Assembly (NCBI GenBank): GCA_014905635.1
Contig: JABVCE010000022.1
Span: forward strand, 372,001-436,000
Reading direction: 5' to 3'
DNA length: 64,000 nucleotides
Source: Scenedesmus sp. PABB004
Taxonomy: Eukaryota
Below, piece after piece: positions 13,189-51,079 of this stretch; within the stretch, counting starts at the first letter, position 1; each line of letters begins with the position of its first letter. A program made the position numbers and the translations under genes. Below the pieces are notes generated by a model, which saw only the letters and a list, made by a program, of their open reading frames with translations, was not told where the DNA came from and did no database searches.

Positions 13189-16100
13189 ATGGCGTCAATG
13201 ATGAGCGGCGGGAGCGGTCGTCTCGCGAGCAGTGGCGCGCGGCAGCTGCGCCGGCGGCAGCAGCAGCAGCGGCAGCGGCGCTCGGCGGGGCGGCGGCAGC
13301 AGCGCGGCATCAGCGGCCGGCGGCGGCAGCAGCAGCAGCAGCGGCGGAGGTGGCGGCAGGCGGCAGGCGACGGCGGCAGGCGGCGCCTGCGCACGAACGG
13401 GCAGCTCACGGCGCCGCGACCGCCGCGCCGGCACGCCGCGCAGAAGGAGGCGGTGCACGAGGCGGAGGCGGAGGACGAGACAGTGCTGGCCAGGATGGGC
13501 TACAAGCAGGAGCTCAGCCGGCAGGCGAGTCCTGGCTTGAAGGGGGGTGGGGCAGCTGCTGCCGCCGCCGCCGCCCTCGGCCGCCCGCGCCGCGCGCCGC
13601 GCGCCGCACTTCGCCGCCACGCCGCCGCGTCTGCGTCTGCGTCCGCGTCCGCAGCTGAGTCTGTTCAACTGCTTCGCCACGACCTTCAGCTTCCTCTCCC
13701 CCATCACCGGTGCGCGCCCCGCCGCCGCCCGCCCGCGCCGGCCGCCCTCCGCCCGCGCTGGCCGCCCTCGCCTCGCGCCCACGCGCCCGCCTCCTCCCTC
13801 CTCCTCTCCACGCCTCCTCCCCCCCCCCCCCTCCTCCTGGCCAGGGCTGACCGGCACCTACGTCTTTCTCTGGCTCTACGGCGGCCCGTCAGCGCGGTGT
13901 GGGGCTGGCCGCTCGTGAGCGCCGCAAACTTCATCGTCGGCCTCATTCTTTCAGAGATCTGCAGCGCCATGCCCACCGCCGGCGGGTGGGGCCGCGCGCT
14001 GCGCAGCCGCCGCCTCCACGCGCCGCCGCCCGCCCACCTCTGCCCGCCCGCCCGCCCGCGTCCCGCCGTGCCTCCCGCCCACCTCTGCCCGACCTGCCCC
14101 CCCCCACCCCCCCACCCACCCCCGGCCAGCGTCTACTACTGGTCGCACCACCTCGGCGGCCCCCGCGTGCGCGGCTCGCGTCGTGGTGGGCGGGTTGGTT
14201 CAACCTGCTCGGCCAGATCGGCAGCAGCGCGGGCGTGGCGTACACGAGCGCGCTGCTCATCGGTGCGCACACGCGGCGACCGCGCGGCGGCGGCGGCAGC
14301 GCCGCCGAGCCCGCGCGCGCCAGCGGCAGGCTGGGCGGCGCGCGCCGGCGGCAGGCCGAGCGCCGCGCTGCCCTCCCCCGCCTCCCCCCTGGCGGCCAGG
14401 TGACTTCATCAAGGCCGGCAGCGGCGGCAGCGCCGGCGCGCCCGCGGGTGCGGCGCCCGCGCGCGCCCGCGCGGGGACTGCGCGCGCCGCGCCGCCGCGC
14501 GCGCGCCGCGCCGCCGCGCGCACGCCACGCCGCTGCCTCCCCCGCCACACACACACGCACACACCGCCGCCGCCGCGGCCGGCGGTCAGGCGTGGTGCTG
14601 AGCCAGCCGGCGCTGCTGGGGCTGTACGCCGCCGTCCTCATACTCATCGGCCTCGTCAACACAGTCACCGTGCGCGCGCTCGGCGTCGTCGGGGAGATCT
14701 CGAGTGAGCCCAGGCCGCCCGCCCGCGCACAGGCCGCGCCCAGCCCGCGCCGCGCCGCGCGGCGCGGCGCGGGGGCCTCGGGCGCCGCGCGCGCCGCGCC
14801 CAGCAGGCCGCGCCGTCTCACGTCACGACCTTTAGAATCCTCCCCTCCCCCTAAAACCCTCCCCTCCCTCAAAACCCTGACCCCAAAACCCTCCCGCCGC
14901 CCGCGCCGCGCAGTCTGGTTCCACCTGATCGGCTGCACCGCGTTTGTGGTGCTCCTGCCCGCGCTCGCGCCGACGCACCAGAGCGCGGCGTGGGTGTTCA
15001 CCACGTTTGCGCCAAACACCGCCTACAGCGGCATCGAATCCCTGCCCCTCATGTGCGGCCGGCCGGCGGGGCCTTGCTGGCTGCGCGGTTCATTGAGTTT
15101 TGTTTCGGGTTCAGGGTTTAGGGTCGAGGGTTGAGCCTCTCTGCCGCTGCCTGCCCACGAGCGCGGCGGCGCGCGCACGCGCGCCCACGCGGTCGCAGGT
15201 TCATCCTCTCCCTGCTCGGCTGCCAGTGGGCCATGGTCGGCTACGACGCCGCAAGCCACCTCACAGAGGAGACGCACGCCGCAGACGTGTCGGGTGCGTT
15301 TTCCCGCCGCCCCCGGCGGCGCTGTGCACGCCTGCGCCGCGCCACCCACCCCTAAAAACCCTTGCCCGCTCGCACCCCCTCGCTAAACCCTGTTGCCAGG
15401 CCCGATCGCGATCCTCGCGACGATCGGCTTCGGCTTCCTGCTCGGCATGGCCTTCCTGCTCTCGGTGACCTTCTCCATCCAGGTGGGTGTTCTGAGCGTG
15501 CTGTGCGTGCTGAGTGTGCCGTGTGTGACGTGTGTGATGTGTTTGTGCGTGTGCGGCTCCTCCCGCGCGGCCCTGCCACAGCCCGCCGCCGCACGCGCAA
15601 CACCACCACTCAACCCTGACGCAGGACCCCGCGAGCGTGTCTGGGTCGACGATCAACCCCGTCATGCAGATCGCATGGGACGTCTTCCAGGCCCGGTGCG
15701 CGCGTCGGGCGCGCACGCGGGGCGCCGCGCGGCGCACGCGGGGGGCGCGCGGGGCGCCGCGCGGCGCAACGCCCCGGCGGCGCGCCCTCGCAGCAAGCAG
15801 CCCTCCACGGCGCCGCCGCCGCGCCCCGCCGCCCTGCCCCACACGCGTCTGCGCGCGACCGCGATCGCGCACACAACACGCCCGCTCCCCTCCCCACGCG
15901 CGCCGACAGCTTTGGCAGCGGCCTGGGCGGCCTGGGGCTCATGGTCGTCCCGCTCGCCTGCTCCCTCTTCTGCGGCAACGCCTGCGTCACCTCCACCTCG
16001 CGGTGCGGCGCCGCGGGGGCTGTGAGCGGGGCGCAGCGGGGCCTTGGCTGAGACAGGGGTGTTGAGGGAGGAGGGCTCGAGTGCCCCCGCGGCCCCCGCG

Positions 16101-17955: not shown

Positions 17956-20570
17956 TCACGCCGCGCCCGCGCCGCCGCCAGCCTCGCTGCCGGCCTCGCC
18001 GCCGGCCTCGCCGCTCCCCGCCGCGCGCAGCCAGGCCAGCTGGCGCGCCACCTCGGGCGGCAGCTCCGCCTCGGCGCGCGCCCAGCGCCCAGCCGCGCCG
18101 CCGCGCCGCCCGCCCGCGGCCGCCGCCTCCTCCCACGGCGGCGGCGCCACCCAGCACGCGCCCGACTGCGCAAATTGCAGCGCCGCCAGCAGCGGGGCCA
18201 GGCCGAACTCGTCCTCGTCCTCTACGAAGAAAGCGCGGCCGGTGCGGCCCGCGCCGTGCGGGCAGGCGCGGCGCGCCGCGGCGGCGTCCCCGGCGCGCAC
18301 GCCTGCGGCGATGGCGGCAGCGCGCGTGGGCGGCGGAGGGGTGGCTGCGGTGCCGCCGAGACCAGGCTGGGCTAGAAGCATCCCCCCTCTCCAGCCGCTC
18401 ACCCTTTTTGAAGCGCGCCTCGACCTCACTGGGCGCTGGCAGGGCCAGGCTGATGCTCAGCAGCTTGCCGGGGCGCGCGCCGCCCGCGCCGGGCGCCGCG
18501 CCGCCGCCCGGCGGCGCCTGGCGCGGCCACGGCGGTGGCGCCGCGCCCGGCGGCTGCGGGTCGACCGACCAGGTGCTCGCGGCGGCGTCGATCGCAGCCG
18601 ACGCGGCGTCGCCGCGCCAGCAGGCGCGGGTCACCCGCAGCAGGCCGTCCACCTCCACCTCCAGCCCGCTCCCGGCCAGCGTCACAGCCACGTCCTCCCG
18701 CGCGTCCACCCACCACGGCAGCGCCGCCTCGAGCAGCAGCTCGCGCGCGCTCACGCGCGTCAGGCTGTACGGCGGCGCCGCGCAGCGCGCGCCGTCGCTG
18801 TCGCCCTGCGGCGGCGGCGTGCGCGGCGGCGGTGTGGGCGGGCGCCGCCCGGCGCGCCGCGGCCGCGACGGTGCGCGCCGTGACCGCCGCCGCCGCGCCG
18901 CGCCTCGAAGCACGCGCGCCAGGCCTGCCCCGGCTGGGCCTTGGGCACCACCAGCGCGGCGAGCCGGCCGTCGCCCGACACCCAGCTCGCGGCGCCGGCC
19001 GCCGCGTCGACGCCGCCCGCCCAGGCGCGCGCGAGCACGGGCGCAAAGCCCGCGTGCTGCAGGCGCAGGCCGCCGGGCGTCGCCTCGATGGAGAGCTGCG
19101 GCGGCGCGCTCGTGCCGCCTGCGGGGCGCACGGCGCGCGGGCGGGCGGTTTGCGGCGGCGCGCGGCCGCGCCCCGGTGCGCCGCGGCCGCGCCGGCGCAC
19201 CCGTGGGGAGGTGCACCGCCAGCAGCACCGCGGCAGGCGTCTGGGTCCAGCAGTAGAAGCGCGCCAGCCGCGCGTCGTGGGTGCGGCGCAGCGCGTCGCG
19301 CGCCGCCGGCGCCGCCGTTGCCCACGCGCGCCAGCAGCAGCGGGCGGGTCCGCCGCCGGCGTCGGCGCCGGCGACGGTCAGCGCGCCTGACGCGCCGGCG
19401 GGAACGATGCTGCCGGCGGCGCGCGCCGGGTGCGGCCGCGGCGCCGCGGCCGGCAGCGCAAACGGCGAGCGCGCCGCGCCGGCCGCCGGGGCCTCGGCGC
19501 GGGCGCCGGCGCGCTGCGGGTGCTGCCGCTGCCGCTGCTGCCGCTCCGCGCGCGCCAGCAGGTCCACCACGGCGTCCTGGAACTCCCGCAGCAGGTGCAG
19601 CTCCGCCTGGGGCCTGCGCGGGGCGCGCGGGGGGGCGCCGCAGCGTGGGCCGGCCGCGCTCGAGCGGCGGCGCCGCGGCGGCGCGGGCCTCGCCTGTGGC
19701 CCGGCAGCGCCGCGGTGTGTGCCTCCGCATCTTCCTTGCGCTTCGCCTCCAGCTCCTGCCACCCCAGCGCCTCGACCACCCGCCCCGGCGCGTTGACCAG
19801 CGGCCAGTGCAGCGGCACGGCGCCCTGCGAGCGATCACGCGGGCCAGCGCCCCGCGGTGGCCGTCGGCGCGCGCACGCGGCCGGGACCAGGCCGGCCTGG
19901 TCCCTGGTCCCCGGCGCCGCACCCGCCAGTGCTGGACGCGCGTGCAGAAGCTGCAGATCGGCATGCCGCACACACACGCCTCGGTCGCGGGGCGGCTGCA
20001 GAGCTCGCACACCACGACGAGCTGCCGCGCGGGGTCGGCGTCGCGGCCCGCGCAGCCGCGCAGCAGCGCCGCGAGCAGCGCCGCCTCGGCCGCGCCGCGC
20101 GGGGCGCCGCCCGCGTCACCGTCGCCGGGCGCGCGGCGCGCCGCCGCCGCGGCGCGTGCGCGTCGTAGACCGCGCGCGCGGCGGGGTCGCACAGCACCTC
20201 GTGCGCCGCGCTCAGCGCCGCAAACGCGGGCCCGCTGCCGCCGGGCTTGTCGGGGTGCACCGCGCGCGCGAGCCGGCGGTAGGCCTGCGCGTGGCGCGCG
20301 GCGGGCGCGCGGTCGGCGCGCGCCGGGCGGTCCAGCCAGCCCGCGCAGCCTCCACGCGCCTGCTTCACGTCCGCCGCGCTCGCGCCGCGGCGCAGCCCCA
20401 GCACGGCGTAGTGCCGGGCGCCGTGGTCGGGCGCGCCCGAGGCGGCCAGCACCTGCGGCGGGCGCCGCGGCGGCGCGCTGGCCAGGGCAGCGCAGCGCGG
20501 GCGCGGGCCGCAGCCGCACGTGCGCGGGCCGCACCGCCGCCGCGGCGGCGTTGAGAGCCTGGGGCGCCAT
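17956..20570 (-). CDS. J-domain (DnaJ) protein with Cys/His zinc-finger and two CS/HSP20-like segments
   Basis: HYAVLGLRRGASAADVKQ/AYRRLARAVHPDK (HPD motif); CELCSRPATEACVCGMPICSFCTRVQH..LHW; FYCWTQTPAAVLLAVHLP...VPKAQPGQAW; PYSLT..LLLEAALPWW..DVAVTL..STWSV..LSISL. Confidence 0.8.
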
Positions 20571-24863: not shown

Positions 24864-27800
24864 TCAGCACAGCGGCCTGGGGCCGTCGGGGCCGTTGAGC
24901 GCGGCGAGGCGCTCGCGCAGCGTGCCCAGCACGTCCGCGACTGGCGGCAGCTCCCCCGCGGGCGGCAGCGCCTTGGCCGCCGCAACCAGCGCCGCGCGCG
25001 CCTTGCTGCCGCCACCGTCGCTGCCGTGCGGCGACGGCGACCGGCCGCCGGCGCCGTTGGCGGCGGGCGCGGCGCCATTGGCGGCGGCGTCCCCGCCCGC
25101 GCCGCCGAGCGGCGGCAGCGGCAGCGCGGCCTCCGGCACGAACCAGGCGGCCAGGCGGTCCGCAAACTGCTGCGGGTGCTTCGCCAGGATGGCCTCCCAG
25201 TCGACCTGCGGCGCGCGCGGGGCGTGCGACGGGGCGCTCCCAGTCGGCGGCGGCGCTCGGCGCGCGCGGCCGGGCGCTGCCGTGCGCGCCGCCGCCGCCG
25301 CGGTGCCGGGCGCGCCTGGTAGTCCTGCGGGATGGGCGCCGTGGCGGGCGCGCCGGCGGCCCAGAAGAGGCCCAGCATCGTCGCGTAGCCCACCGCCGCG
25401 GTGCCGCGCGCGAGCGGCATGAAGTTGTACCTGCGCGGCGCGGGCCGGTGTGTGTTATCCACTGTGTGAGCCTGGTCACGAGCCCTAGTCTTTATTGTAA
25501 TGTAATTCGAGCCTTTTTGGGCCCGGCGCGCACCAGTAGTAGGCGTAGCTGAGGATTGCGGCCGCCGCGGCGGGCGTGTCGCGCGCCGACAGCGCTGCGA
25601 GCACGCGCTCCCAGGCTGCCTCGAGCTCCGCGTCAAACTCCTTCCACCTGTGTGGCCCCCCCGGCGGGCGGGGCGGATGGGGCGGGGCGGGCGGGGCGGC
25701 GGCGGACGAGGCGTCGTGGGTCGGCCCGGCTCGGCAGCCGCCGCGCAGAGGCTCGCCGGCCGGAGGGGCGAGGGTGGACGCGGCCCGCGCGGCCGGCGCC
25801 GCGGCGCGCACCGCGGCGGCGTGACGGGCGTGCGGATGCTGAACTCCACGGCGTCTGGCTGGTTGGGCACCTTGACGAGCGTCAGCCGCGTGCCCTCAAT
25901 GCACCCGGGCGGCACCATCGCGTCTGGCGAGGGGGACGAGAGGGACGAGGGAGGGCGGGAGGGAGGCGTCAGTGGGGCGAGTCGCGACCGGCGGCGGCGC
26001 GGCGGACAGCGCGCGGCGCGCGGCGCACGCACGCACCCGAGATGCGCTTGGGCGGGCTCGCGCCGCGGCGCGGGCTCGCACCCGCGCCGCCGGCCGCGGG
26101 CGCGTGGCCGCTGCCCTTGCCGCCGCCGTCGCCGCCGCTGCTGCTGCAGTCCGCGCCGGCGGCGCCGCCCTCGGCGGCCTGCTGCGCCTTGAGCAGGGAG
26201 TGCAGCGGCACCACCACCCAGCTGTCTTGCCTGCGCACGCAGCGCGCGGCGGCGTCGGCGCCGGCGCCACCAGTGCAGCGCAGCCCAGCCCAGCCCGCAG
26301 CCCAGCAGCCGCCCTCGCGGCGCACCCACCCGATGATGTTGTACAGCTCCAGCGCCGTGGTCGCGCGCCGCACCGCCTCCTGCTTCTCCGCGCTGCCCAG
26401 CGGCACCTCGCGGTTGGCCGCGTCGTACGCGTGCCCCCGCTGCGCGGCGCGGCGCGGCGGCGGCCGGCGGCGGACGCGGACGCGGACGTCAGCGGCGGCA
26501 CGCTGCTGACGCACACAGGCTAACGCGGCGCCGCGGGCCTCCGGACGCGCGCGCGGCGCGGCGGCTGCCCGCGCGGCGCACCTCGAGCAGGCAGTCCTTG
26601 GCGAGCTGCAGGGCGCGGGCAAAGTTCATGTAGTAGCGCACGCACTTGGTCTGCCCGCTATACATCGGCGTGTGGCTGCCAAAGCCGGCCTCGAACTCGC
26701 GCCGCGTGAGGCGGTCGACCCACACGACCTGGTCCGCCGGCTCCGACAGCTGCCGCCACCTGCGGCGGCCGGGGCGCGCGCGCGCGCGGTCGGCGGCCGG
26801 CGGCGCGGCGGCGCGGCGCGAGGGCGGCGTCGAGCGCCCGCCCGCGCCGCGGCGCCGCCCCCGGCGCGGGGCGCTCACTTGACGACGATGTCCATGGCGT
26901 CCCGCCAGCCGAAGAGGTGCCGCCCGCTGCAGCCGCCCTGCCCGCTCGCGCCGGCGCTGTTGACCCACAGCCCGTCGCGCCCCGCGGCGCGCTCCGCCAG
27001 CACCGCGCCGACCGCCTGCGCGAGCTCCGCGGCGGCGTAGCCCGCCGCGCGCTGCTGGCGCACGTTGGGCAGGAAGCCCTGCGCGGGGCGCGAGGCGCGG
27101 GGCGGGGGCGGGCGTGAGGGCGGCGCGCGGCGCGGCGCCCGGAATCGTCCCCGGCGGTGTGCAGCGCGTGCTTCCCGCTCGCCGCTCCCCGCTCCGAGCC
27201 GCCGCTCCCTGGCCGCGCACACCTGGTGGTAGTTCTGCAGCAGCGCCCCCACCGTGTCGGCCGCGCCCGTGAGCGCGGCGACCTGGTCGGGCCGGCCGGC
27301 GCCGCCGCCGGCGCCGTCGCGCGCGCCGCCGCCGGAGCCGCTGCCGCGGCCCTCCGCCGGCAGCGGCGGCTGCAGGCTGTACGTCGCAAACAGCTCCTGG
27401 CTGGGCGGGCCCTTCTTGCACCAGCACTCCTGCGCGCCGTGCACGGACGGCGCGGGCGCGTGAGCAGCGCCGGCCGCCGAGGGCGCGCAGCGCGCCCGGC
27501 CGCCGCATCGCGGCCCGCGGCGCGGCCGCCATCGCGCCACCCCCGCCGCGCCTTGAACAGCGGCGGCAGCTCGCTGTCGAGGCAGAGGTCTGCCGCGCGG
27601 CGGTGCGCCGCGTGCGCGGCGAAGAGCGCCATCTCGCGCTGGTAGAAGCAGAGGAACTGCGCGGTGCTGCGCGGGGTTTAGCGGCGCGGGGCGGCGCGGG
27701 GTTTAGGGGCGCGGGGCGGCGCGGGGTTCACAGGCGCGCGGCGCGGGGTTGAGCGGCGCGCGGCGCGGGGCCCCCGGGCGCGGGGCGCGGGGCGCGGGGC

Positions 27801-34687: not shown

Positions 34688-36598
34688 TCACCCCTCGCCC
34701 GCGCCTGCTGCCTGCGCCGCGTCGGCCGCGCCGCCGTCCGCGTGGGCCGCGGCGGCGGCGGTGGCGGCCGCCGCCAGCGCCGCGAGCGCGCCAGGCAGGC
34801 CGCTGGCGTCGCCGCCCGCCGCGTAGTGCGCCTGCGGCTGGCCGGCCGGCGCCGGCGCGGCGCCGCCCAGCAGCCCCAGCTGGTTGGCCGCCAGCAGCAG
34901 CAGGCTCGGGTTGAGCGCGGCGCTGCCATGCCCAAAGCTGCCGGCGCCGGCGGCCGGGCCCCGCACCCCCGCCGCCGCTGCGCCGAGGCCGGCGAGCTGG
35001 CTCAGGCCGGCGAGCGCGGGCAGGCCCTGCAGGCCGCCGAGCCCCGCCGCCGGCGTCGCGCCGTAGCTTGCCGCTCCGCCGACGCCTAGGACGCCCAGCG
35101 CCGCCAGCAGCGAGGAGGGGCCGGCGCCGCCGCCCGCCGCCGCCGCCGGCGGCGCCGGCGCCGCCGCGCCGTAGCTGGCCGCTCCGCCGCCGCCGCCGCC
35201 GCCGAGGGCGCCGAGCGCGGCCAGCAGCGAGGAGGGGCCGGCGCCGCCGCCCGTCGCCGCCGCCGCCGCCGCCGCGAGCAGGGACTGCGCGGCGCACGGC
35301 GCCTGCGGCGCGGCGCCGGCGCCGCTGCCAAAGATGGCGGCCAGCGCAGCGAGGACGACGGGGTTCATCGCCTGCAGGTTCTGCAGGCCGTGCATGAACA
35401 CGCCGGGGCTGATGCCCGCGGCGGCGGCGAGCGCGGCGGCGGCGCCGACCGCGCCCGCCGCGCCCGGCGCGGCGCTCGTCGCGCCGCCGCTGCTCGCGGC
35501 CGCGGCCGCGCCGCCCGCGAGCTGCGCCAGCATGTCGGCCAGCGCCCCGCTGCTGCTCTGGCTGCCGCCGCCGGCGGCGGCGTAGTGGTAGCCGCCAAAG
35601 CCGGCGGGCGCGTACGCCGCGCCGGCGGCGGCGTGCTGCGCGTAGCCGCCGGCCGCCGCCGCGGCGAGCTCCGGGCCGAGGCCGCCGCCCGTGGCGGGGT
35701 GCGAGGCGGGGTGGTGCGGGTAGTGCGCGAAGGGCGAGCCGCCGGCGCCGCACGGCTCCGGCGCCGCGCCGCCGCCGCCGGCGTAGCGCGCCGGCACGCC
35801 CACCGCGCCCCCGCCGCCGGCGGCGCCGGCGGCGGCGCGCCGCGGCGCGCGCTGGCCGGCCATCGCGGCCGCGATGTGGTCGAGCGCCTCGGCGCTGAGC
35901 GGCGTGCCGGGCGGCAGCCCCGCGACGCGCTTCAGGTAGAGGCGGTACTTCTGCAGGTGGCTTGCCACGTTCTCACGCGTCATCCCCGGCACGCCCATCA
36001 TCGACAGGATGGTCTTGGGCACCGCGTTGCGGATGCCCAGCTGCGCCACGGCGGCGAGGAAGCGCGCGTGCAGCTCGGGCGTCCAGATGAGCCGCGGCCG
36101 CTTGCTGCCGCGCCGCGCGCCGCCCGGCGGGTCCGCGCCGGGCTCGCCGTCGCCGTCGGCGTCGTCGCCCTCCGCCTCGGTCTCGCCCTCCTCGCCCATG
36201 CCGTCAAACGCGTCGGCGTCGCCGCCCAGGCTCGCGCCAGCGGACGCCGCGCGGGCCGCCTGCATGCCCGCGGCGTCGCCCGGCGCGCCCGCCCCGCCGC
36301 GCCGCCTGCGTCGGCGGCGGCGGCGTCTGGCATGGCGGCGTCCTGCGCCTCCTGCTGCGTCGGCGAGGCGCCCTCGCCCGCCGTAAGCAGCTTGGGCCGC
36401 TTGGCGAGCTGCAGGGCCTGGCCCTCCTCGCCGCTGGCCTCGCTGCTGCCGCCGCCGCTGCCAGCGGCGCCCGGCTCGTGGCCGCGCTTGTGGTGCGGCT
36501 GCTTGCGCGGGTCGGCGGCCGCCGACGACTGCGGCTCCTGCTGCTGCGAGGCCTGCATTGACTGGAGCTGCTCGCGCACCCAGCGCTCCGCCTGCTGC

Positions 36599-36630
<32 letters not shown>

Positions 36631-37768
36631 GTGCTGCTGTTCATGCTGCTGCTGCTCCGCGCCATGGCCGTGCTGCCCGTGGCGGCCGTGGGCGTGGCGG
36701 CGGTGCGCCGGCAGCGCTGGCGGCGCCGGCGGCAGGCGCGACAGGCTGAGCAGGTTGTGGGCCTGCTGCAGCATGGCCTGCTGCTCGGCCGACAGCCGCG
36801 CGACGTCGGCCGCGGCCGCGTCGTCATCGGCGGCCCCGTCGTCCGCGGGCGGCGCGCCCCTGGGCGGCCGTCCAGCCGGCGGCGTCGTCGTGCGGCCGCT
36901 CTGCTGCCGCGACTGCTGCAGCTGCTGGCTGAACTGGCTGAACGCGCCGGCGGTGGCCGCCGACTGCCCGGATGCGTCGTTGCTGGCGCCGAGGGAGCTG
37001 GCGCCGTCGCCCGCGGCCGGCGCGACGGGCGCGCTGGGCGGCAGCTGCGCGCGAGCGCCCGTGCCGCTGCCGGCGCCGCTGCCGCCCGAGCCGCTGCCGT
37101 CGCTGGCATCGTCGCCCTGCTGCGCAACACCCAGCTCCGGCGCGGCATGCGTCTGGCCGCCCGCGCCGTGCGCCAGCAGCGGCTGCAGGCCGCCCAGCTG
37201 CTGCTGCATCAGCAGCGCCTGGACCTCGGGGGCCAGGCCGCCGCCGCCGGCGCCGCCGCCCAGCTGCGCCTGCAGCTGGGCCACCGCCGCCAGCGAGGCC
37301 AGCGGGCCCGCCGACGCCGCCGCGGCGGGGCCAAACACGCCGCTGGCTGCGGCCGCGGCCGCCGCGCCCGCGCCGGCCGCGGCCACGCCGCTGCCCAGCT
37401 GCGCGAGCAGCGCCTGCAGCTGCGTCGCTGCGGGGCCGGCGGGGCCGGCGCCGCCGCCCGCCGCCGCCGCCGGCAGCTGCTTGCTGGTCGCCGCCACCGC
37501 CGCGGGCTGCGCCGCGCACGCTCCCACGAGCGCCGACAGCAGGGCCGGGTGTGCGCCCACCAGCGCAGCCGCCGCGGGGTTCGCCAGCAGCGAGGCCAGG
37601 TTCTGGTGGCCTGCGCGCGCAGCGGCAGCAGCGGCGGTGAGCCGAGAGGCCGCCGTCGATTGCCGCGCCGGCGGCGCCGCGCCGCGACCGGCCGCGCCGG
37701 CGTTGCCCGCGCCACGCACCTCCGTCGCCGGTTACCTCAACTCCTGACTTTGGAGTTCCCGATTCCAT
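34688..37768 (-). CDS. GARP/SHAQKYF Myb transcription factor, LUX ARRHYTHMO/PCL1-like
   Basis: [59 protein letters not shown] (~35925-36105); Gln/Ala-rich N-terminal part in another frame, joined near ~36290; first exon [16 protein letters not shown], intron ~37612-37719; no receiver domain seen. Confidence 0.85.
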
Positions 37769-37855
37769 GGCCTGCGGAGCGCCGGCGCGCGTGGGCTCGC
37801 CAAACGTGCGGAAAGGAGCAGGGGCATGCCCTCCTCCCGATCGCTCCGCGCGCCA

Positions 37856-40101
37856 CGGCCCCCGCGCGCACGCCCGGCGCCGGCGGGCGGCGCCCCGGCG
37901 CCGTCGCGCGGGCGCGGCGCGCCCCCGCGCCCTGGGCGGCGCTGATTCGCCGGCGCCAGCCGGAGAGCTGCCTGATTTTCCGCCCGCGCCGCGCGCCGCG
38001 CGCCGCAGGCCCCGCGCGGTGGCGGGACCGCTCACCCTGGGCAGCGCACGGCCGCCGCTGGGCCAACCGCCGCAGGGGCGCCCCGCGCGCCGAGCGGTGC
38101 TTCTGGTGGCCCGTGCGCGGAGCCGGCGTGCGGGCCGCCGCCGAGGCCCTCAGCCCTCCCCGTCCTCCTCCTGGGCTGCCTGGGCCATGTGGGCCGTGCA
38201 GGCCGGCGCGTGGCGCTGAGGCTGCCTGTGCGTGGCCCCGACTGGTGCGCTTGTGGGCGCTGCGCTGGCCGGCTGCCGCGCGTGGTGCTGGCGGGTCGTG
38301 GAGCCCGGGATCGATGGCCGCGGGCGCAAGCTGCGCGGGGGCAGTCGCGAGCGCTGATTTTGTCACTATTTGCAGATATGGTCACATATGCTTGGAGGTC
38401 GCGCCCGCACTGAGCGGCCAGCCTTCTGAGCGCGCGGCTGTGGTCGGCCGCCGCCGGCAGCGCTCGGCCGGGCGCGCGCGCGACGCCGGCCCGCAGGCCC
38501 GCACAATCCTGGTCGCGCCCGCCGCGCGCCAGCCCGGAGCCGCGCGGTGCGTGCGGGCGCTGTGGGACGAGACGGTGCGGCCACGCGGGCGCCGCGCCAG
38601 GGTGGCGGCCCCAGCGCGCCGCGCGCGGGCGGCGGAGCCGGGCGCCGCCGCGCGGCGCGGCCGCCGCCGCGCGGGATCATCCCGCATGATGCATGCACCC
38701 CGGCGGGGCACGCCGGCGATCGCCTGGCTCGCGAGCCAGGCCGGCGCCTGCGGGGCAGCGGCGGTGCGGCGGGCGCGCGCTGCGTCAAAGCCCCGCGCCG
38801 CGGGGCCCTGGCGGCGAGCCGCCCGCCGGCTGCCGCGCGCCTGCGCCGCAACCGCGTGCGAGCGGGCAGGCCCTGCATAGCAGCAGCAATGGCCCCGCCG
38901 GGCGCGGGCAGCCATCCCCCGCAGGCCAGGCATTGGCGGCCGGTGGGCCGGTGCTGCCGAGCGGGTGCAACCCGGCCCCCGCGTCGTGAGAAGCGCTGAT
39001 TGCCGGCGCCAGCCGCCAGAGCTGCTGCCTGGTTTTTCGCGCGCGCCGCGCCCCGCGCGCCGCAGGCCCTGCGCGCGGACGCGGCGGCGGCTCACCCTGG
39101 GCCACCCCCGCGCCGGGCGCGCCCCCGGGGGCGCGCGAAGCCATTGCTAATGGCTGCTGCTATGCAGGGCCTGCCCGCTCGCACGCGGCTGCGAGCGGCG
39201 CAGGCGCGCGGCAGCCGGCGGGCGGCTCGCCGCCAGGGCCCTGCGGCGCGGGGCTTTGACACAGCGCATCATGCGGGATGATCCCGCGCGGCGGCGGCCG
39301 CGCCGCGCGGCGGCGCCCGGCTCCGCCGCCCGCGCGCGGCGCGCTGGGGCCGCCACCCTGGCGCGGCGCCCGCGTGGCCGCACCGTCTCGTCCCACAGCG
39401 CCCGCACGCACCGCGCGGCTCCGGGCTGGCGCGCGGCGGGCGCGACCAGGATTGTGCGGGCCTGCGGGCCGGCGTCGCGCGCGCGCCCGGCCGAGCGCTG
39501 CCGGCGGCGGCCGACCACAGCCGCGCGCTCAGAAGGCTGGCCGCTCAGTGCGGGCGCGACCTCCAAGCATATGTGACCATATCTGCAAATAGTGACAAAA
39601 TCAGCGCTCGCGACTGCCCCCGCGCAGCTTGCGCCCGCGGCCATCGATCCCGGGCTCCACGACCCGCCAGCACCACGCGCGGCAGCCGGCCAGCGCAGCG
39701 CCCACAAGCGCACCAGTCGGGGCCACGCACAGGCAGCCTCAGCGCCACGCGCCGGCCTGCACGGCCCACATGGCCCAGGCAGCCCAGGAGGAGGACGGGG
39801 AGGGCTGAGGGCCTCGGCGGCGGCCCGCACGCCGGCTCCGCGCACGGGCCACCAGAAGCACCGCTCGGCGCGCGGGGCGCCCCTGCGGCGGTTGGCCCAG
39901 CGGCGGCCGTGCGCTGCCCAGGGTGAGCGGTCCCGCCACCGCGCGGGGCCTGCGGCGCGCGGCGCGCGGCGCGGGCGGAAAATCAGGCAGCTCTCCGGCT
40001 GGCGCCGCGAATCAGCGCCGCCCAGGGCGCGGGGGCGCGCCGCGCCCGCGCGACGGCGCCGGGGCGCCGCCCGCCGGCGCCGGGCGTGCGCGCGGGGGCC
40101 G
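37856..40101. repeat. Long inverted repeat: arms ~37856-38893 and ~39140-40101, ~245-bp spacer
   Basis: Read directly: ttttgtcactatttgcagatatggtcacatatgcttggagg (~38358) vs cctccaagcatatgtgaccatatctgcaaatagtgacaaaa (~39560); identical ORF translations on opposite strands (e.g. 38032-38385 - and 39573-39926 +). Confidence 0.97.
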
Positions 40102-40494
40102 CCCTGCTGGGCGGGGCGCGCGGAGTGCTGGGTGCCCTACTCCTGCCGCCGTGTGGGGCCCTGCCAGCACGCACTCGGCGCCCACAGCGCGCGCGGTGCG
40201 CGGCCGCAGGGCTCGCCGCCAGGGCTCGCGCGGCGCGGGGCATTTGGCGCGGCGACGACAGCCCACGCCCGCCGCGTCCGCCGGTTGTTCGGGTGCTCGT
40301 CGGGCTCACCGGCGCGACCGCAGGCGCACGCGCTCTCGCACGGGAGCAGAGCGCCCGGGCGCCAGCGCGGGGGCCGCTCAAACAGGGGCAGCCGCGCTCC
40401 ACGCGACCCGCGACCGCCTGGAGCGCGTGGCGCCAGCCTTGGGTACGCGGCGTGGGGGCATGGAGGTGCTCAGGTGGGCGGGCAGGGCCAGCTG

Positions 40495-42243
40495 ATGGAT
40501 GGAGCAGCGGCGGCAGCTGCGGGAGCAGCATGCCCAGCGGGCGGCCATTCCCGCACGCCCATCTCCTTCATGCTCCCGCGCGCCGCTGCCTCGCGGCTGC
40601 CCGCTGCCGCGCGGTCGGTGCGCGTCGGCGGCGGCCTGGGCCGCGCGTCGGCGGCGGCCTGGGCCGCGCGCCGCCGCTGCAGCCCCAGCCGCCCCGCGCT
40701 GCGCCGCGCAGGTCGCTGTGTGGCGGCGAGCCGCCGCCGGTCACGTGCACCACGCGGCCGGGGCAGGTGGACGCGGTGCCGGAGCAGACGGCGAGCCTCA
40801 TCGCGCCGGGGCCGGCCGTGCTGCACGCGCTCACCGGTCCCGGCGACGGCGCGGCCGGCGCCAAGCACAAGCTCGCCGGTGCGGCGCGCGGCGGCAGCGC
40901 GGCCAGGCCGCGCCCGCGCGGTCGGCGCTCACCCGCGCCGGCGCGCGCCGCGCAGAGCTCGGCGTCGCCTGGCAGCCGCAGGCAGAGGAGCCGGCCGGCG
41001 CGGCGCGCGGCGGCGGCGGCGGCGGCGCGCAGCAGCAGCCGTGCTGCTGGGGCGAGGCGCTGTCCCTGTACGACCGCGACCCCGCCACGGGCGCGCGCAA
41101 CGGCGAGCCCGTGGCCGACTGCTTCGCGGCGCTCGCCTACGCCGACGGCGGCGCCGTGCTGGCGCTCGCCGATGGCGTCAACTGGGGCGAGCGCGCGGCC
41201 GCCGCGGCGCGCGCCGCCGTGCACGGCTTCGTCGTGCACGTGCATGCCGAGCTGGCGGCCAAGCAGGGTGCGCGGCGCGGCCGGCGCGCGGGGCACGCGG
41301 GCGGCCGCGGCGGCAGGCGGCGCTGCGGCAGCCGCGCAACACAGCCCCGCAGCCCACGCCGCCGCCGCCGCCGCCGCCGCCGCTGCAGGCGGCCGCCCCG
41401 TCGGCAGCGCCGCCGCGTTTGGCGTCCTGCGCGCCGCGGTGCACGCGGCGCAGGCACAGGTGCTGGCGTCGGACGGCACGCTCACCACGCTCGTGGGCGC
41501 GCTCGTCGCGCGGCCGCGGCGCGGCGGCGGCGCGCGCGCGCTGTGCGTGGTGATCGGCGACAGCCCCGCGTACGCCTGGCGCGCCGGGCAGCGCGCCGTG
41601 GAGGAACTGAATTACGTTCCGCCCCCGCACGGCTTCCACAGGTGCGGCCGCGGCGCACGCGCACGCGCACGCGCCGCCGCTCGCCGCGCCGCGCCGCCGC
41701 CCGCCGCGCCGCGCCGCCGCCCGCCGCGCCCGCCCGCGCCGCGGCCGCGGCCGACGCGCCGGCCCACGCGCCGCGCCAGGGACCCGCGCGCGTGCCCGGG
41801 GTGCCTGGGCTACGCCATCGGCGAGGCGCCCGACCTGAGCAACATCAGCTACAGCCTCACGCGCCTCGACCCGGGTGCGGCGCGCGGCGCCCGCGCCCGC
41901 CCCGCCCGCCTTTCCGCCCTCGCGCCCGCGGCCCACCGCGCCCGCGGCTCACCGCTCGCCGCGCCTGTGGCTCACCGCGCACCGCGGCCGCGCCCGCGCC
42001 GATCCGCCGCGGCCGCGCCCGCGGCGCAGGTGACGTCATCTTCCTGGCCAGTGACGGCGTGTCGGACAACTTTGACCCGGTCGTGCGCAAGCACGCCTCC
42101 GCGCGCCCCAGCAGCGAGGGCAGCAGCCGGCTGCCCGGCGTCGGCGCGCTCAGCCCGGCGACGTGCCACAGCATGGCCCTCGCCGAAATGGCGGCCACGC
42201 TCGCAGACGCGTGCCGCGGCGGCGCGGCGGCGGCGGCGGCGCT

Positions 42244-42306
<63 letters not shown>

Positions 42307-42612
42307 GCCCCGGGCGCGGCGCAGCGCGGCGGCGGGCCGCAGACGGCGGCGGCGCCGCAGGCCGGCGCCAGCGGCTCGCCGCTGCCGCTCCCGCCGCCAG
42401 ACGGGCGCGCGCTCACGGCGCGCGGCGCGGTAGCGGCGCTGCTCGGCTTTGCGTCGGCCGGCACCGCCGCGCAGCGCGCCGCGCTCGAGGCGCCCGAGCG
42501 GCCGCGCGACGCCGCGGAGCTGGCGGACGAGGTCGCGGCGCTGCCGGGCAAGATGGACCACGCCGCCGTCGTCGCGTTCAAGGTCCCGCAGCGCCCCGCC
42601 GGCGGGCGCTGA
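40495..42612 (+). CDS. PP2C/SpoIIE-fold protein (CG9801-like), multi-exon
   Basis: SLYDRDP..GEPVADCF, LALADGVNWGE..AARAAVHG, TLTTL, VIGDSPAY, PDLSN, DVIFLASDGVSDNFDP, PGKMDHAAVVAF; frame change just after the poly-Q (~42310); start tentative. Confidence 0.82.
42245..42304 (+). repeat. (CAG)20 microsatellite encoding poly-Gln
   Basis: Perfect CAG run in the last exon of the PP2C-like gene. Confidence 0.95.
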
Positions 42613-48223: not shown

Positions 48224-50617
48224 GCGCGGCCGCGGGGCAGCCGCGGCGTCACATGTTTCGCCCCCGGCGCGCGCCCGGCGCGGCGCGGCAGGCGGCTGCA
48301 GGCGCGCAGGCGCGACGCCCCAGCGGAGACGCGGCGCGGGGCCGCCCGAACGGCCAGACGGTGCGGCCTCGTAGTCGGACGCGTGAGCAAGATGCCTGCC
48401 GTCCGCCGCCAGCGCGCGGTCGCTGCGATCGGCCGCGCCCGGGCCGACGCCCGGTCGGTGCGGTGCCGCGGCGGCGCGGCAGGCGCAGCACGGGCGGCCG
48501 GCTGGCCCCCGCGGGGGCCGGGCGCGGCGGCACGCCCGCGGGGCGCGGGCGCCGCGGCAGCCGGTGGCGGCGGCGGCGCCGCCGCCGCAACGCCAGCGCC
48601 GGGATCTCAGGGCGCGCGGTGGCCAAGCTGCTGCTGACGGTGGCCACGCACCGCTGCGGGTGCGCGGGCGCCGGTGCGCGCCGCCACGTGGCACGCACAC
48701 GTGGCACGATGCGTACGTGCCGCGGTGAGCTGCGGAGGCGTCCGGCTGCCGCGGCGCTGCGGCGGCGGCGACATCCCCGCCGCGGCGGCGGCGTCCCTGC
48801 CTCACCCCAAGAGGCGCGCCGCGCCGGGCGCAGCGGCGGCGGCAGCCGCCGCCGCCGCCGCCCGGGGCGGCGCGGTGGCGCAGCCGATGCCCGGCGCGGC
48901 ACGGCAACAGTGTGGAAAAGCTGCGGGGCATGCACCGGGCGGGCCGAGAGTCGAGCAGGGATGCTCCGGCGAACATTTATATAAAAAAAATGGGCGCCGC
49001 TCCCGGCGCGCGCCGCCGCCCCCGCCCCGCACGCCGCCCAGGTGCCTCCAGCGCGCGTCGCACCCCCGGTACGGATGCTCTGACATGCCATGAGCACGTG
49101 GGTCGTCACGAGCAGCCGCGCGGCGCTGCGGGGCGCGCGCGGGCGCCGGCGTGACGCGTGCTGCGGCGCGTGCTGCGGAGGCTGCCGGCTGAGCTGCGGA
49201 GGCTGCCGGCGGCCGCCGGCCGGCCGGGCAGGTCCGAGCGGCCTGCAGGGCAGAGCGGCTGCGGGCCGGCCCGCGCCCCCGCGGCGCGCAGCGAGCTCGC
49301 AGCTCGAGGCAGCTGGCATCGCAGCACGCGCAGCGCCGGCGTGGCGCCACTCCAAGCCGGGGCAGCTCCGGCGCGCGCAGCCAGCGCAGGGCCGCATGCG
49401 GCCCTGCGCCCTGCCTGCCTGCGCGCAGGCAGGCAGGGCGTACAGTCAGGCGGGCCCCGCAGGGCCCAGCTGGGCGGCGGCGGTGAGGCGGGCTGCCTCA
49501 GGCCTCAGGCAGCAGGGCACGCCCTGCCGCCTGACCTGCTGCCCTGCTCGTGCGCCTGGACCATGCTGCGCGCGCTCGCCGCCCGCCACCGTCCGCCGCC
49601 CGCTTGGAGCCCCAAACAGATTCCACGCGCGCAAGAACGCCGGCAGGCACGTGCGTGCGCTCCCCACTCTGGGCGGTGCAGTCAGCCCTGCAAGCGTGGG
49701 GGCGCGCGTGCTGGCGGCGGCGCGCGGCCGTGGGGCAGCCGCGACGTGTCGCCTGTGTCGCCCCGGCGCGCGCCCGGCGCGGCGCGGCAGGCGGCCGCAG
49801 GCGCGACGCCCCAGCGGAGACGCGGCGCGGGGCCCGCCCGAACGGCCAGACGGTGCGGCCTCGTAGTCGGACGCGTGAGCAAGATGCCTGCCGTCCGCCG
49901 CCAGCGCGCGGTCGCTGCGATCGGCCGCGCCCGGGCCGACGCCCGGTCGGTGCGGTGCCGCGGCGGCGCGGCAGGCGCAGCACGGGCGGCCGGCTGGCCC
50001 CCGCGGGGGCCGGGCGCGGCGGCACGCTCGCGGGGCGCGGGCGCCGCGGCAGCCGGTGGCGGCGGCGGCGCCGCCGCCGCAACGCCAGCGCCGGGATCTC
50101 AGGGCGCGCGGTGGCCAAGCTGCTGCTGACGGTGGCCACGCACCGCTGCGGGTGCGCGGGCGCCGGTGCGCGCCGCCACGTGGCACGCACACGTGGCACG
50201 ATGCGTACGTGCCGCGGTGAGCTGCGGAGGCGTCCGGCTGCCGCGGCGCTGCGGCGGCGGCGACATCCCCGCCGCGGCGGCGGCGTCCCTGCCTCACCCC
50301 AAGAGGCGCGCCGCGCCGGGCGCAGCGGCGGCGGCAGCCGCCGCCGCCGCCGCCCGGGGCGGCGCGGTGGCGCAGCCGATGCCCGGCGCGGCACGGCAAC
50401 AGTGTGGAAAAGCTGCGGGGCATGCACCGGGCGGGCCGAGAGTCGAGCAGGGATGCTCCGGCGAACATTTATATAAAAAAAATGGGCGCCGCTCCCGGCG
50501 CGCGCCGCCGCCCCCGCCCCGCACGCCGCCCAGGTGCCTCCAGCGCGCGTCGCACCCCCGGTACGGATGCTCTGACATGCCATGAGCACGTGGGTCGTCA
50601 CGAGCAGCCGCGCGGCG
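48224..50617. repeat. Direct repeat of ~900 bp (48224-49125 and 49722-50617), offset ~1492
   Basis: Near-identical over most of the length (e.g. gaacatttatataaaaaaaatggg at 48971 and 50463); duplicated ORF translations in the track; 5' ends more diverged. Confidence 0.97.
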
Positions 50618-51079
50618 GGCGGGGCGGGAAGGGGCGCGGGCGAGCTCAGCATCGTCTCCGCCTGAACGCGTCGCGCTTGAGGCGCCGTACGTCCGCAAAG
50701 GATTGCGACTCCTAGTTATGCATTTCGCACGCGTCCAGCGGACAGGCGCCGGCCTGCCGAGCAGGCGCGCGCCGGCCGCGACCTGCAGCGCAGCCCCTGC
50801 GCGCCGCCGCGGCGCCGCGGCGCGCTGGGTTGAGGTCGGGGCACCCTGGCAGGCTCAGGGAGCGTGGGCGCCGGGCGGCGGGTCGTGGTAAGCGGGTGAC
50901 GGGGCTCGCCAGAGCTCGGCAGGCGGGAGCCGGAGCCTCGCTCTTCATTGCGCCCCCGCTCCCTGGCCCGCCACAGACTCCGCCCGCACACCCCATCGCG
51001 ACTCTTAGACCAAGCTCACAGCCCATATCTTGACGCGCCAGCCCCAATTCCTAGCAAAACGCCCAACTAGGTTCCGCAC

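What the first reader, a model, noticed from the sequence alone, without database searches (positions are those of the whole stretch)
37856..40101. ~1 kb near-perfect inverted repeat fills the region between a LUX-like clock TF and a divergent PP2C-like gene
Seen: two arms of ~1040 and ~960 bp that are almost exact reverse complements around a ~245-bp spacer; the left arm begins under 100 bp from the LUX-like ATG. No transposase and no obvious target-site duplication. Known: long inverted repeats are major miRNA/siRNA sources in Chlamydomonas. Inference: this is either a read-through long-hairpin RNA locus able to act on the LUX-like 5' UTR/promoter, a mirror-image bidirectional promoter, or a foldback element.
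Basis: partly seen in the sequence, partly recalled or inferred. Interest (0 to 1): 0.8.

Follow-up and report, generated by a model that had tools for sequence, protein, structure and literature searches.

The report
Inverted duplication between two algal genes
The non-coding DNA between a LUX-like transcription-factor gene and a PP2C-type phosphatase gene is a real, roughly 1-kb mirror-image duplication, most likely a local copying event kept identical by gene conversion, and nothing yet shows that it does anything.

Summary
Arms 37856-38692 and 39266-40101 are reverse complements with 0 mismatches and one 1-nt indel over 837 nt. The pairing continues inward at 93% (38777-38890 / 39150-39267) around a 259-nt centre.

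The anatomy is layered. The centre holds an older 78% direct copy of the arm's outer end. The right flank (40143-40276) holds an older ~72% copy of the inner segment. So an old tandem (X-A) repeat was later duplicated in inverted orientation, and its 837-nt A part was then homogenised.

The region is non-coding: no codon periodicity, no Pfam hit inside the repeat, no Rfam hit, no tRNA. There is no target-site duplication and no other copy in the 64-kb window.

A freshwater metagenome holds exact 151-nt pieces of the arm at low depth. It also holds one piece with a 428-nt microhomology deletion near the centre.

Best reading (0.55): a local palindromic duplication of upstream DNA with arm-to-arm gene conversion. 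As a by-product, the same 837-bp cassette lies in front of both divergent genes, and any read-through RNA would form an 836-bp duplex.

The hairpin-siRNA, shared-promoter and foldback-transposon readings could not be tested. No genome, RNA run or close relative was available. Assembly artefact is unlikely. Interest is modest.

The parts
37856..38692 (+). A1: left arm, high-identity tract (837 nt)
   Evidence: Reverse complement of 39266-40101 with 0 mismatches and 1 gap column. No codon periodicity.
39266..40101 (-). A2: right arm, high-identity tract (836 nt)
   Evidence: Its outer 186 nt plus the flank X0 are colinear with X1-A3' at 71.9% over 349 aligned nt.
38693..38776 (+). Segment present only in the left arm (79-84 nt). 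The 100% tract ends exactly here.
   Evidence: Alignment A1. Its last ~19 nt align with the right flank, so the right arm has probably lost it.
38777..38890 (+). X1: inner part of the left arm
   Evidence: 93.2% over 118 aligned nt with 39267-39150. There are 3 substitutions and 2 small indels.
39150..39267 (-). X2: inner part of the right arm
38891..39149 (.). Spacer (259 nt). It holds A3' (38920-39102, + strand), an old direct copy of the arm's outer end (37867-38042).
   Evidence: 78.3% over 184 aligned nt, E 1.6e-32.
40143..40276 (-). X0: old diverged copy of the X segment, just outside the right arm
   Evidence: Local alignment score 84 against shuffles with mean 34.1, sd 4.9, max 53. BLASTN 74% for 40157-40254 vs 39167-39266.
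38340..38404 (+). AT-rich island inside A1. Its mirror copy lies at 39554-39618.
   Evidence: These are two of only 21 places in 64 kb where a 40-nt window has G+C below 0.5. CTGATT words lie at 37942, 37972 and 38354, with mirrors at 40010, 39981 and 39599, plus 38996 in A3'. That is 7 of the window's 8 matches, against 2.49 expected.
38490..38917 (.). 428 nt skipped in one 151-nt contig of an independent freshwater metagenome. The join lies between two 10-nt direct repeats.
   Evidence: record 7: 38418-38489 joined to 38918-38965, 0 other letters, depth 2.7.
34691..37768 (-). LUX-like GARP/Myb gene. ATG at 37768, exon 1 at 37768-37720, intron at 37719-37611, Myb domain at about 35942-36085.
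   Evidence: Pfam PF00249, E 1.6e-07. PDB best match is LUX 6qec. Periodicity. Frames and splice phase read.
40499..42612 (+). PP2C/PPM-like gene, multi-exon. Candidate ATG at 40495 or 40499, stop at 42610-42612.
   Evidence: Periodicity. Exons and GTGCG...CAG introns read. PP2C_2 E 0.047. PPM-type homologues at E 8e-12 to 5e-10.

Best explanation
This is a locally generated palindromic (inverted) segmental duplication of non-coding upstream DNA. It is not a gene, an RNA family or a transposon.

Inferred history:
1. A unit of about 1.05 kb (A, 837 nt, plus X, about 200 nt) was duplicated in tandem long ago. Those copies are now 72-78% alike.
2. Later, part of that array was copied in inverted orientation, probably by a fold-back or template-switch repair event. 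This gave (+) A1-X1-A3' facing (-) X2-A2-X0. X1 and X2 are now 93% alike.
3. Intrachromosomal gene conversion between the two arms then erased all differences across the 837-nt A tract. The conversion stopped at a 79-84-nt heterology.

Small deletions near the centre are the usual decay of a palindrome. These are the 79-84-nt indel and a 428-nt microhomology deletion seen in an independent sample.

Consequences (inferred, not shown): the LUX-like gene and the PP2C-like gene each have the same 837 bp in the same relative orientation upstream. The arm ends 87 nt from the LUX-like ATG and about 395 nt from the PP2C-like ATG. Any transcript crossing both arms would be an 836-bp perfect hairpin. 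The arms could also flip the centre by recombination.

I think a dedicated function is less likely than none.
For: Shown:
- The arms are exact: 0 mismatches and 1 gap column in 837 nt.
- Divergence is strongly uneven along the arms. Substitutions are 0 of 836 in A against 3 of 114 in X (Fisher p 0.0017). All events are 1 against 6 (p 1.9e-5). The switch falls exactly at an indel. This is the pattern expected of a conversion tract.
- Older paralogous pieces sit in the order expected of a tandem unit, on both sides. X1-A3' is colinear with X0-A2 (349 nt, 71.9%). A3' is a 78% copy of the A start. X0 scores 84 against a shuffle maximum of 53.
- The right boundary is therefore inside old homology and is not an insertion site.
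- The region is non-coding. GC periodicity spread is 0.16 or less across 37600-40400, against 0.26-0.62 in most 150-nt windows of the flanking coding stretches. There is no Pfam family in the repeat, no Rfam match at E up to 1 and no tRNA.
- There is no other copy in the window.
- A second non-coding duplication of similar size lies about 8 kb to the right in another divergent intergenic region. It is direct, 931 aligned nt, 97.3%. Local kilobase duplications therefore recur here.
- An independent freshwater metagenome holds an exact 151/151 piece of the arm (38186-38336) and a piece of the LUX-like gene with 1 difference. Depths are similar, 3 against 2. It also holds a same-strand A-to-A3' join with a 428-nt deletion between 10-nt repeats.

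From the literature: large palindromes keep over 99% arm identity through gene conversion (PMC8981503, abstract as shown in the listing).
Against: - Gene conversion is inferred from one genome only. A very recent second duplication of just the A tract would give the same picture.
- The direction and order of events are reconstructions.
- Genome-wide copy number of A is unknown because no genome is held. A low-copy mobile element is therefore not excluded.
- Three CTGATT words per arm, one surviving in the old copy, and a rare AT-rich island suggest that A carries real cis-elements. That would favour a functional reading over a neutral one.
- No read or contig shown spans either outer junction. 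Only the left half was laid, and 11 of the 19 pieces were not listed.
Confidence: 0.55

Rival explanations
1. Hairpin-RNA / siRNA locus (proto-MIR type). A transcript starting in one flank or in the centre reads through both arms. It folds into a perfect duplex of about 840 bp and is diced into small RNAs. These act on the promoter or 5' leader of the LUX-like gene, and on the identical cassette before the PP2C-like gene.
For: A read-through RNA of 37856-40101 folds at -2754 kcal/mol with 836 arm-to-arm pairs. Five shuffles give -1460 to -1482. In Arabidopsis, inverted-repeat loci with stems of 97-1872 bp are transcribed and diced, and are seen as young MIR genes born by inverted duplication (PMC2582634, passages). 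[quoted passage not shown] The arm ends 87 nt from the LUX-like ATG.
Against: There is no evidence of transcription. The arms match no coding sequence in the window, so the only targets would be the two copies themselves. It is unknown whether this organism has Dicer or Argonaute. Both flanking genes point away from the repeat. One sample carries a 428-nt deletion in the left arm and centre, which argues against strong constraint on the inner stem.
Confidence: 0.15
2. Selected mirror-image promoter module. The A cassette is a cis-regulatory unit that was copied so that a clock-type GARP factor and a PPM phosphatase are driven by the same sequence. Identity is maintained because both copies are used.
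For: Each gene sees the same 837 bp in the same orientation. A carries 3 CTGATT words, and 7 of the window's 8 matches lie in this repeat against 2.49 expected. One sits in a GATTCG word, which I recall as the LUX binding-site type GATWCG. A also holds one of the window's 21 AT-rich islands. The block around two of these words is the best-kept part of the old copy A3'. With only 87 nt between arm and ATG, the LUX-like core promoter very likely lies in A1.
Against: Distances to the two ATGs differ (87 nt against about 395 nt). No transcription start data exist. The motif argument rests on effectively one independent sequence plus one old paralogue. Gene conversion keeps arms identical without any selection. 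The LUX binding motif is recalled and was not tested.
Confidence: 0.12
3. Foldback-type transposon, or two oppositely inserted copies of one mobile element whose arms were later homogenised. An earlier case in this scan, in a red alga, was read this way.
For: The element has long inverted arms around an unrelated centre and no coding capacity. It has short tandem subrepeats in the arms (29 nt x 2.2, 7 nt x 5.4, 27 nt x 2.8). It sits in a promoter region, a common landing site. Finding e1-552245 shows that such a palindrome can be an inverted transposon pair.
Against: There is no target-site duplication and no other copy in 64 kb. The right boundary lies inside older homology, X0. Metagenome depth of the arm is about that of the single-copy gene, 3 against 2, and the arm is only patchily covered. 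A 24-nt word of the arm has 0 matches in the metagenome and viral contig collections.
Confidence: 0.12
4. Assembly artefact: a fold-back chimeric read, or a mis-join, created one of the arms.
For: The arms are suspiciously perfect. The only difference is a 1-nt homopolymer indel, typical of long-read consensus error. The neighbouring gene also shows a frame change near 36270-36300 with no GT-AG intron nearby, which suggests indel errors in the assembly.
Against: Both arms sit between distinct sequences: the LUX flank and X1 on the left, X2 (7% different from X1) and X0 on the right. X0-A2 is colinear with the old X1-A3' junction. No chimera of one arm can create the diverged inner copies, the 79-84-nt indel, or unique genes on both flanks. 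An independent sample has the A-to-A3' same-strand adjacency.
Confidence: 0.04

Closest known systems
Genomic palindromes with arm-to-arm gene conversion (mammalian X/Y palindromes; PMC8981503, abstract seen in the listing)
   Same: Two inverted arms over 99% identical around a unique spacer. Identity is best explained by intrachromosomal gene conversion. Structural decay is concentrated at the centre.
   Different: The arms are ten to a thousand times smaller (0.84-1.0 kb). They carry no genes. The palindrome lies between two divergent single-copy genes. Conversion is inferred from uneven divergence within one genome, not from comparing species.
Inverted-repeat small-RNA loci / proto-MIR genes (Arabidopsis IR-MIR loci with 97-1872-bp stems, PMC2582634; long hairpin precursors in Chlamydomonas, PMC5511227)
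   Same: A near-perfect inverted duplication of hundreds of base pairs could give a long hairpin RNA. It arose by inverted duplication.
   Different: No transcript or small RNA is known. The arms derive from intergenic or promoter DNA, not from a target gene's transcribed region. RNAi machinery is unverified in this organism.
Foldback (FB-type) transposons and inverted transposon pairs (earlier scan finding e1-552245 in a red alga)
   Same: Long inverted arms, a non-coding body, and a position in a divergent promoter region.
   Different: There is no TSD, no dispersed copies are seen, and the boundary is embedded in older local homology. The arms are not built of short tandem subrepeats.
Fold-back / template-switch inverted duplications arising at DNA breaks (the literature on inverted-repeat fragility and palindrome formation; PMC3855049 and PMC6007334, abstracts seen in the listing)
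   Same: Head-to-head duplication with an asymmetric spacer and microhomology-bounded deletions near the centre.
   Different: The event itself cannot be reconstructed. No ancestral allele is available. An 18-nt GC palindrome in the spacer (about 39118-39135) is not at the axis of symmetry.

Membership tests
Gene-converting genomic palindrome | Two inverted arms with over 99% identity and a unique spacer | tested here: met
   837 nt, 0 mismatches, 1 gap column. The spacer is 259 nt, or 573 nt between the perfect tracts.
Gene-converting genomic palindrome | Arm identity higher than the age of the duplication allows (conversion) | tested here: inconclusive
   Substitutions are 0 of 836 in A against 3 of 114 in X (p 0.0017). 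The switch falls at an indel. No orthologous locus is available to date the arms.
Foldback transposon / long-TIR element | Target-site duplication flanking the inverted termini | tested here: not met
   The bases outside 37856 and 40101 are not direct repeats.
Foldback transposon / long-TIR element | Multiple dispersed copies with the same termini | not testable with these tools
   No genome is held. There are none in the 64-kb window. The word scan found 0 hits. Low-copy depth in X1 is only a weak hint.
Foldback transposon / long-TIR element | Sharp break of homology at the element ends | tested here: not met
   The right flank 40143-40276 is an old copy of the internal X segment, colinear with X1-A3'.
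Inverted-repeat hairpin small-RNA locus | Arms able to form a long, near-perfect RNA duplex | tested here: met
   MFE -2754 kcal/mol with 836 arm-to-arm pairs. Shuffles give about -1465.
Inverted-repeat hairpin small-RNA locus | One transcript through both arms, and small RNAs mapping to them | not testable with these tools
   No RNA holder is listed for the stretch.
Inverted-repeat hairpin small-RNA locus | Arm sequence shared with a target transcript | tested here: inconclusive
   There is no match to coding DNA in the window. The arm could overlap the LUX-like 5' leader, but its start site is unknown.
Classical bidirectional promoter | Divergent genes whose starts lie within about 1 kb (definition recalled) | tested here: not met
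   The candidate ATGs at 37768 and 40495/40499 are about 2.7 kb apart.
Known RNA families (Rfam) / tRNA | Covariance-model match | tested here: not met
   0 matches at E up to 1 in 36500-41500. There is no tRNA there.

The most novel reading that the evidence does not exclude
The palindrome is a working regulatory device. A gene-conversion-maintained, mirror-duplicated 837-bp cis-module places a LUX-like clock factor and a PPM phosphatase under the same control. Occasional read-through of the module gives a perfect hairpin whose small RNAs feed back on both promoters. This would be a paired transcriptional and RNA-silencing switch at a clock gene in a very GC-rich green alga.
Probability: 0.1. 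Interest if true: 0.65.

Novelty: new member of a known kind. Interest (0 to 1): 0.3.

Why it matters
If it is only a structural duplication, it is a tidy small-scale example of palindrome birth, homogenisation and decay in an extremely GC-rich alga, where biased gene conversion is probably strong. That has local interest only. It would matter more if the identical cassettes co-regulate a clock-type transcription factor and a phosphatase, or if the locus makes hairpin small RNAs. It would then be a caught-in-the-act example of how promoters are shared or how new silencing loci arise. Both ideas can be tested directly with RNA data from the organism.

Tried and rejected
- **Whole-genome copy count:** no genome is held for this window.
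- **Public runs:** one run was listed, X1, a freshwater metagenome holding 0.05 of the sampled words. No RNA holder was listed.
- **Laying X1:** I laid it on the left half only (36300-39149), because the tool turns away stretches with a long repeat. The right arm and right junction were therefore not examined. Parts without cover say nothing, and 11 of the 19 pieces were not listed.
- **Exact 24-nt word from the arm's AT-rich core:** 0 matches in metagenome contigs and 0 in viral contigs.
- **Orthologue and synteny search:**
  - The LUX-like ORF found 16 proteins at E up to 1e-5. All cover only 8-17% of the query. 15 of the 16 carry the Pfam Myb domain; the sixteenth, P0017 from Micractinium, has no Pfam domain on record.
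  - The GARP region found 7 metagenome loci at 56-83% identity over the domain, with 55-69% G+C. None has a PP2C-like neighbour or an inverted repeat longer than 187 nt. The synteny test therefore failed for lack of close relatives.
- **Earlier findings of this scan:** none by place or by sequence. The word search gave only analogies.
- **Old X copy on the left flank:** alignment scores were z 2.2 and 4.3, not clearly above unrelated control regions, which reached z 3.5. Rejected.
- **PP2C-like gene against solved structures:** only a polyglutamine match.
- **Organism:** a paper on *Mychonastes* (72.4% G+C, passages) shows only that 80% is above that reported value. I did not identify the organism.
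- **Alga-type poly(A) word TGTAA and TATA words:** none within 37000-41000.
- **Periodicity-based map of non-coding stretches:** too crude to say whether a 2.7-kb spacer is unusual here.
Full report

Yes. The repeat finder reports complementary arms at 37951-38692 / 39266-40007 (742 nt, 100%) and 37856-37950 / 40007-40101 (95 nt, 100%). BLASTN joins these into one 837-nt alignment at 99.88%. A global alignment gives 0 mismatches and a single gap column, one C in a C run.

Moving inward, the left arm carries 79-84 nt (38693-38776) that the right arm lacks. Then 38777-38890 pairs with 39267-39150 at 93.2% over 118 aligned columns.

The window is 79.8% G+C and has no N. Short GC-rich pseudo-repeats abound, but nothing else compares. 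In the whole window the other 19 of 22 inverted pairs are 80-116 nt at 70-85% in low-complexity DNA.

**2. Anatomy beyond the two arms**

The structure is layered.

- The spacer contains a third, older piece. 38920-39102 is a direct 78.3% copy of the outer end of the left arm, 37867-38042 (184 aligned nt, E 1.6e-32).
- The DNA just outside the right arm, 40143-40276, is an old inverted copy of the inner segment X. The local score is 84, against shuffles with mean 34.1, sd 4.9 and maximum 53.
- BLASTN aligns 38778-39102 with 40254-39916 in one piece (349 nt, 71.9%). The X-to-A junction is therefore itself old and occurs twice.

Writing A for the 837-nt tract and X for the roughly 200-nt inner segment, the locus reads:

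(+) A1 - X1 - A3' | 47 nt | (-) X2 - A2 - X0

These are two short tandem (X-A) arrays facing each other. The left flank shows no convincing X copy. Its scores (z 2.2 and 4.3) are no better than unrelated controls, which reach z 3.5.

**3. What the DNA is not**

- It is not coding. The difference in G+C between the three codon positions is 0.16 or less in every 150-nt window from 37600 to 40400. In most windows of the flanking coding stretches it is 0.26-0.62.
- None of the 12 open frames of 150 aa or more that overlap the repeat has a Pfam family inside it.
- Rfam gives no match at E up to 1 in 36500-41500.
- The window's only predicted tRNA lies at 20467-20544.
- Tandem Repeats Finder finds only short arrays in the arms: 29 nt x 2.2, 7 nt x 5.4 and 27 nt x 2.8.
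- The bases outside the two ends are not a target-site duplication.
- BLASTN of the region against the window finds no other copy. It finds only 46-110-nt GC-rich low-complexity hits.

**4. The neighbours**

*Left gene (- strand).* It has a Myb/GARP domain (PF00249, E 1.6e-07) at about 35942-36085. Its best solved-structure match is the Arabidopsis LUX Myb domain (6qec, E 5.6e-26, 94.5 bits), narrowly ahead of ARR1 at 92.8 bits. No receiver domain was found. 'LUX-like' is therefore fair but not exclusive.

The ATG at 37768 is followed after 49 nt by GTGCGT. A CAG at 37613-37611 then rejoins the frame that shows coding periodicity, in phase. Three introns I read in the right-hand gene carry the same G|GTGCG...CAG|G signals. 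The arm therefore ends 87 nt upstream of this ATG.

*Right gene (+ strand).* It is multi-exon, with a candidate ATG at 40495 or 40499, about 395 nt from the arm. One exon scores PP2C_2 at E 0.047, below the cut-off (1 of 4 exon pieces). That same exon finds 4 proteins at E 8e-12 to 5e-10 with 50-53% identity. One is named a PPM-type phosphatase and one carries PF13672. 'PP2C-like' is therefore moderately supported.

Other genes in the window mark a eukaryote: LTN1, HCNGP, a subtilase and a trypsin-like protease. The best GARP hits include volvocine and Micractinium proteins. This suggests a green alga, but the organism was not identified.

**5. Independent data**

No genome is held. No RNA run holds the stretch.

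One freshwater metagenome, X1, holds 5% of the sampled words. I laid it on the left half, 36300-39149. It gave:

- a 151-nt contig identical to 38186-38336, inside the arm, at depth 3;
- a 151-nt contig on the LUX-like gene with 1 difference, at depth 2;
- a 151-nt contig that matches 38418-38489 and then 38918-38965 exactly, on one strand, skipping 428 nt between two copies of a 10-nt word, at depth 2.7.

So the organism, or a near-identical strain, exists in nature. The arm is not high-copy there. The same-strand adjacency of A and A3' is confirmed. A deletion variant, or a paralogous junction, exists near the centre.

No listed piece spans an outer junction, and 11 of the 19 pieces were not listed.

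Searches for relatives failed. A 24-nt word of the arm has no match in metagenome or viral contigs. The 7 metagenome loci found with the GARP domain are distant (55-69% G+C). They have neither a PP2C-like neighbour nor a long inverted repeat.

**6. How it most likely arose and behaves**

Three levels of identity are present:

| Comparison | Identity |
|---|---|
| X0 vs X1, and A3' vs A1 | 72-78% |
| X1 vs X2 | 93% |
| A1 vs A2 | 99.9-100% |

These imply at least two duplications of different age plus a recent homogenisation. The unevenness within the arms is significant. Substitutions are 0 of 836 against 3 of 114 (p 0.0017). All events are 1 against 6 (p 1.9e-5). The perfect tract stops exactly at the 79-84-nt heterology. 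This is what a gene-conversion tract blocked by non-homology looks like.

Large palindromes elsewhere keep over 99% arm identity in this way (PMC8981503, abstract seen in the listing). Inverted repeats are known break-prone sites (PMC3855049, abstract seen in the same listing). That fits the indels and the 428-nt microhomology deletion near the centre.

A second kilobase-scale duplication lies in the next large divergent intergenic region. It is direct: 48224-49151 against 49722-50642, 931 aligned nt, 97.3%, and non-coding. This shows that such local duplications recur here.

I therefore read the locus as a local inverted duplication built on an older tandem repeat, with arm-to-arm gene conversion (confidence 0.55). 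The order and direction of events are inference.

**7. Why an artefact is unlikely**

Each arm is embedded between distinct sequences. The LUX flank and X1 bound the left arm. X2 (7% different from X1) and X0 bound the right arm. The X0-A2 junction has an old paralogue in X1-A3'. A fold-back chimera of one arm cannot create these.

The single 1-nt difference may well be a consensus error. So may a frame change in the LUX-like gene near 36270-36300, which has no GT-AG intron nearby.

**8. Possible functions (untested)**

*Geometry.* Both genes see the same 837 bp in the same relative orientation.

*Cis-elements.* The cassette carries 3 CTGATT words. 7 of the window's 8 matches lie in this repeat, against 2.49 expected, and no shuffle out of 100 reached 8. 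One sits within GATTCG, which I recall as a LUX-type site. The cassette also holds one of only 21 AT-rich islands in 64 kb. The block with two of these words is the best-kept part of the old copy. This hints that A holds real cis-elements. With 87 nt to the ATG, the LUX-like core promoter probably lies in A1.

*Hairpin.* A read-through RNA would form an 836-bp duplex: -2754 kcal/mol against about -1465 for shuffles. This is the kind of substrate that gives small RNAs at inverted-repeat loci in Arabidopsis (stems of 97-1872 bp; PMC2582634, passages). The same has been proposed for Chlamydomonas (PMC5511227, passages). Inverted-repeat transgenes also attract methylation of the repeat and the adjacent promoter in plants (PMC9263138, abstract seen in the listing).

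None of this could be tested here.

**9. Comparison and verdict**

The locus works like a miniature gene-converting palindrome. It fails two defining tests for a foldback transposon, the TSD and a sharp boundary. It meets only the structural criterion for a hairpin small-RNA locus. It is not a classical bidirectional promoter, because the ATGs are 2.7 kb apart.

An earlier finding of this scan (e1-552245) described a similar palindrome in a red alga as an inverted transposon pair homogenised by conversion. That keeps the transposon rival alive until a genome-wide copy count is made.

Novelty: a new member of a known kind. Interest 0.3. It would rise to about 0.65 if the shared-promoter plus hairpin reading proved true, which I put at about 0.1.

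Noticed in passing
window 48224-49151 and 49722-50642: A second recent non-coding duplication, this one direct: 931 aligned nt, 97.3%, with 570 nt between the copies. It lies in the next large divergent intergenic region. Each copy holds an AT-rich, TATA-like island (48946-49004 / 50438-50496). Its sequence is unrelated to the inverted repeat.
   Followed up: partly
window ~36260-36300 (- strand): The LUX-like reading frame shifts by one base here, and no GT-AG intron is nearby. This is either a 1-nt indel in the assembly (a G/C run) or a real frameshift or non-canonical intron.
   Followed up: partly
window 36592-36656 and 42240-42305: Both genes flanking the palindrome carry long pure CAG/CTG (polyglutamine) runs of about 21 codons each. 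These simple repeats also produce spurious inverted-repeat hits between distant genes.
   Followed up: no
window 20467-20544 (- strand): ARAGORN predicts a tRNA-Arg (GCG). It lies in a stretch that shows no coding periodicity.
   Followed up: no
window ~15100-15132: A short degenerate run of GGGTT-type words (TTTAGGG-like, telomere-repeat-like) sits inside an AT-richer island.
   Followed up: no
window 39118-39135: A perfect 18-nt GC palindrome lies in the spacer, close to the inner end of the right arm. It is not at the axis of symmetry of the large repeat, so a role in a fold-back event is only a guess.
   Followed up: no
window 25461-25530: An AT-rich island holds two adjacent TGTAA words, the poly(A) signal type I recall for green algae. 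This is consistent with a chlorophyte origin of the window.
   Followed up: no
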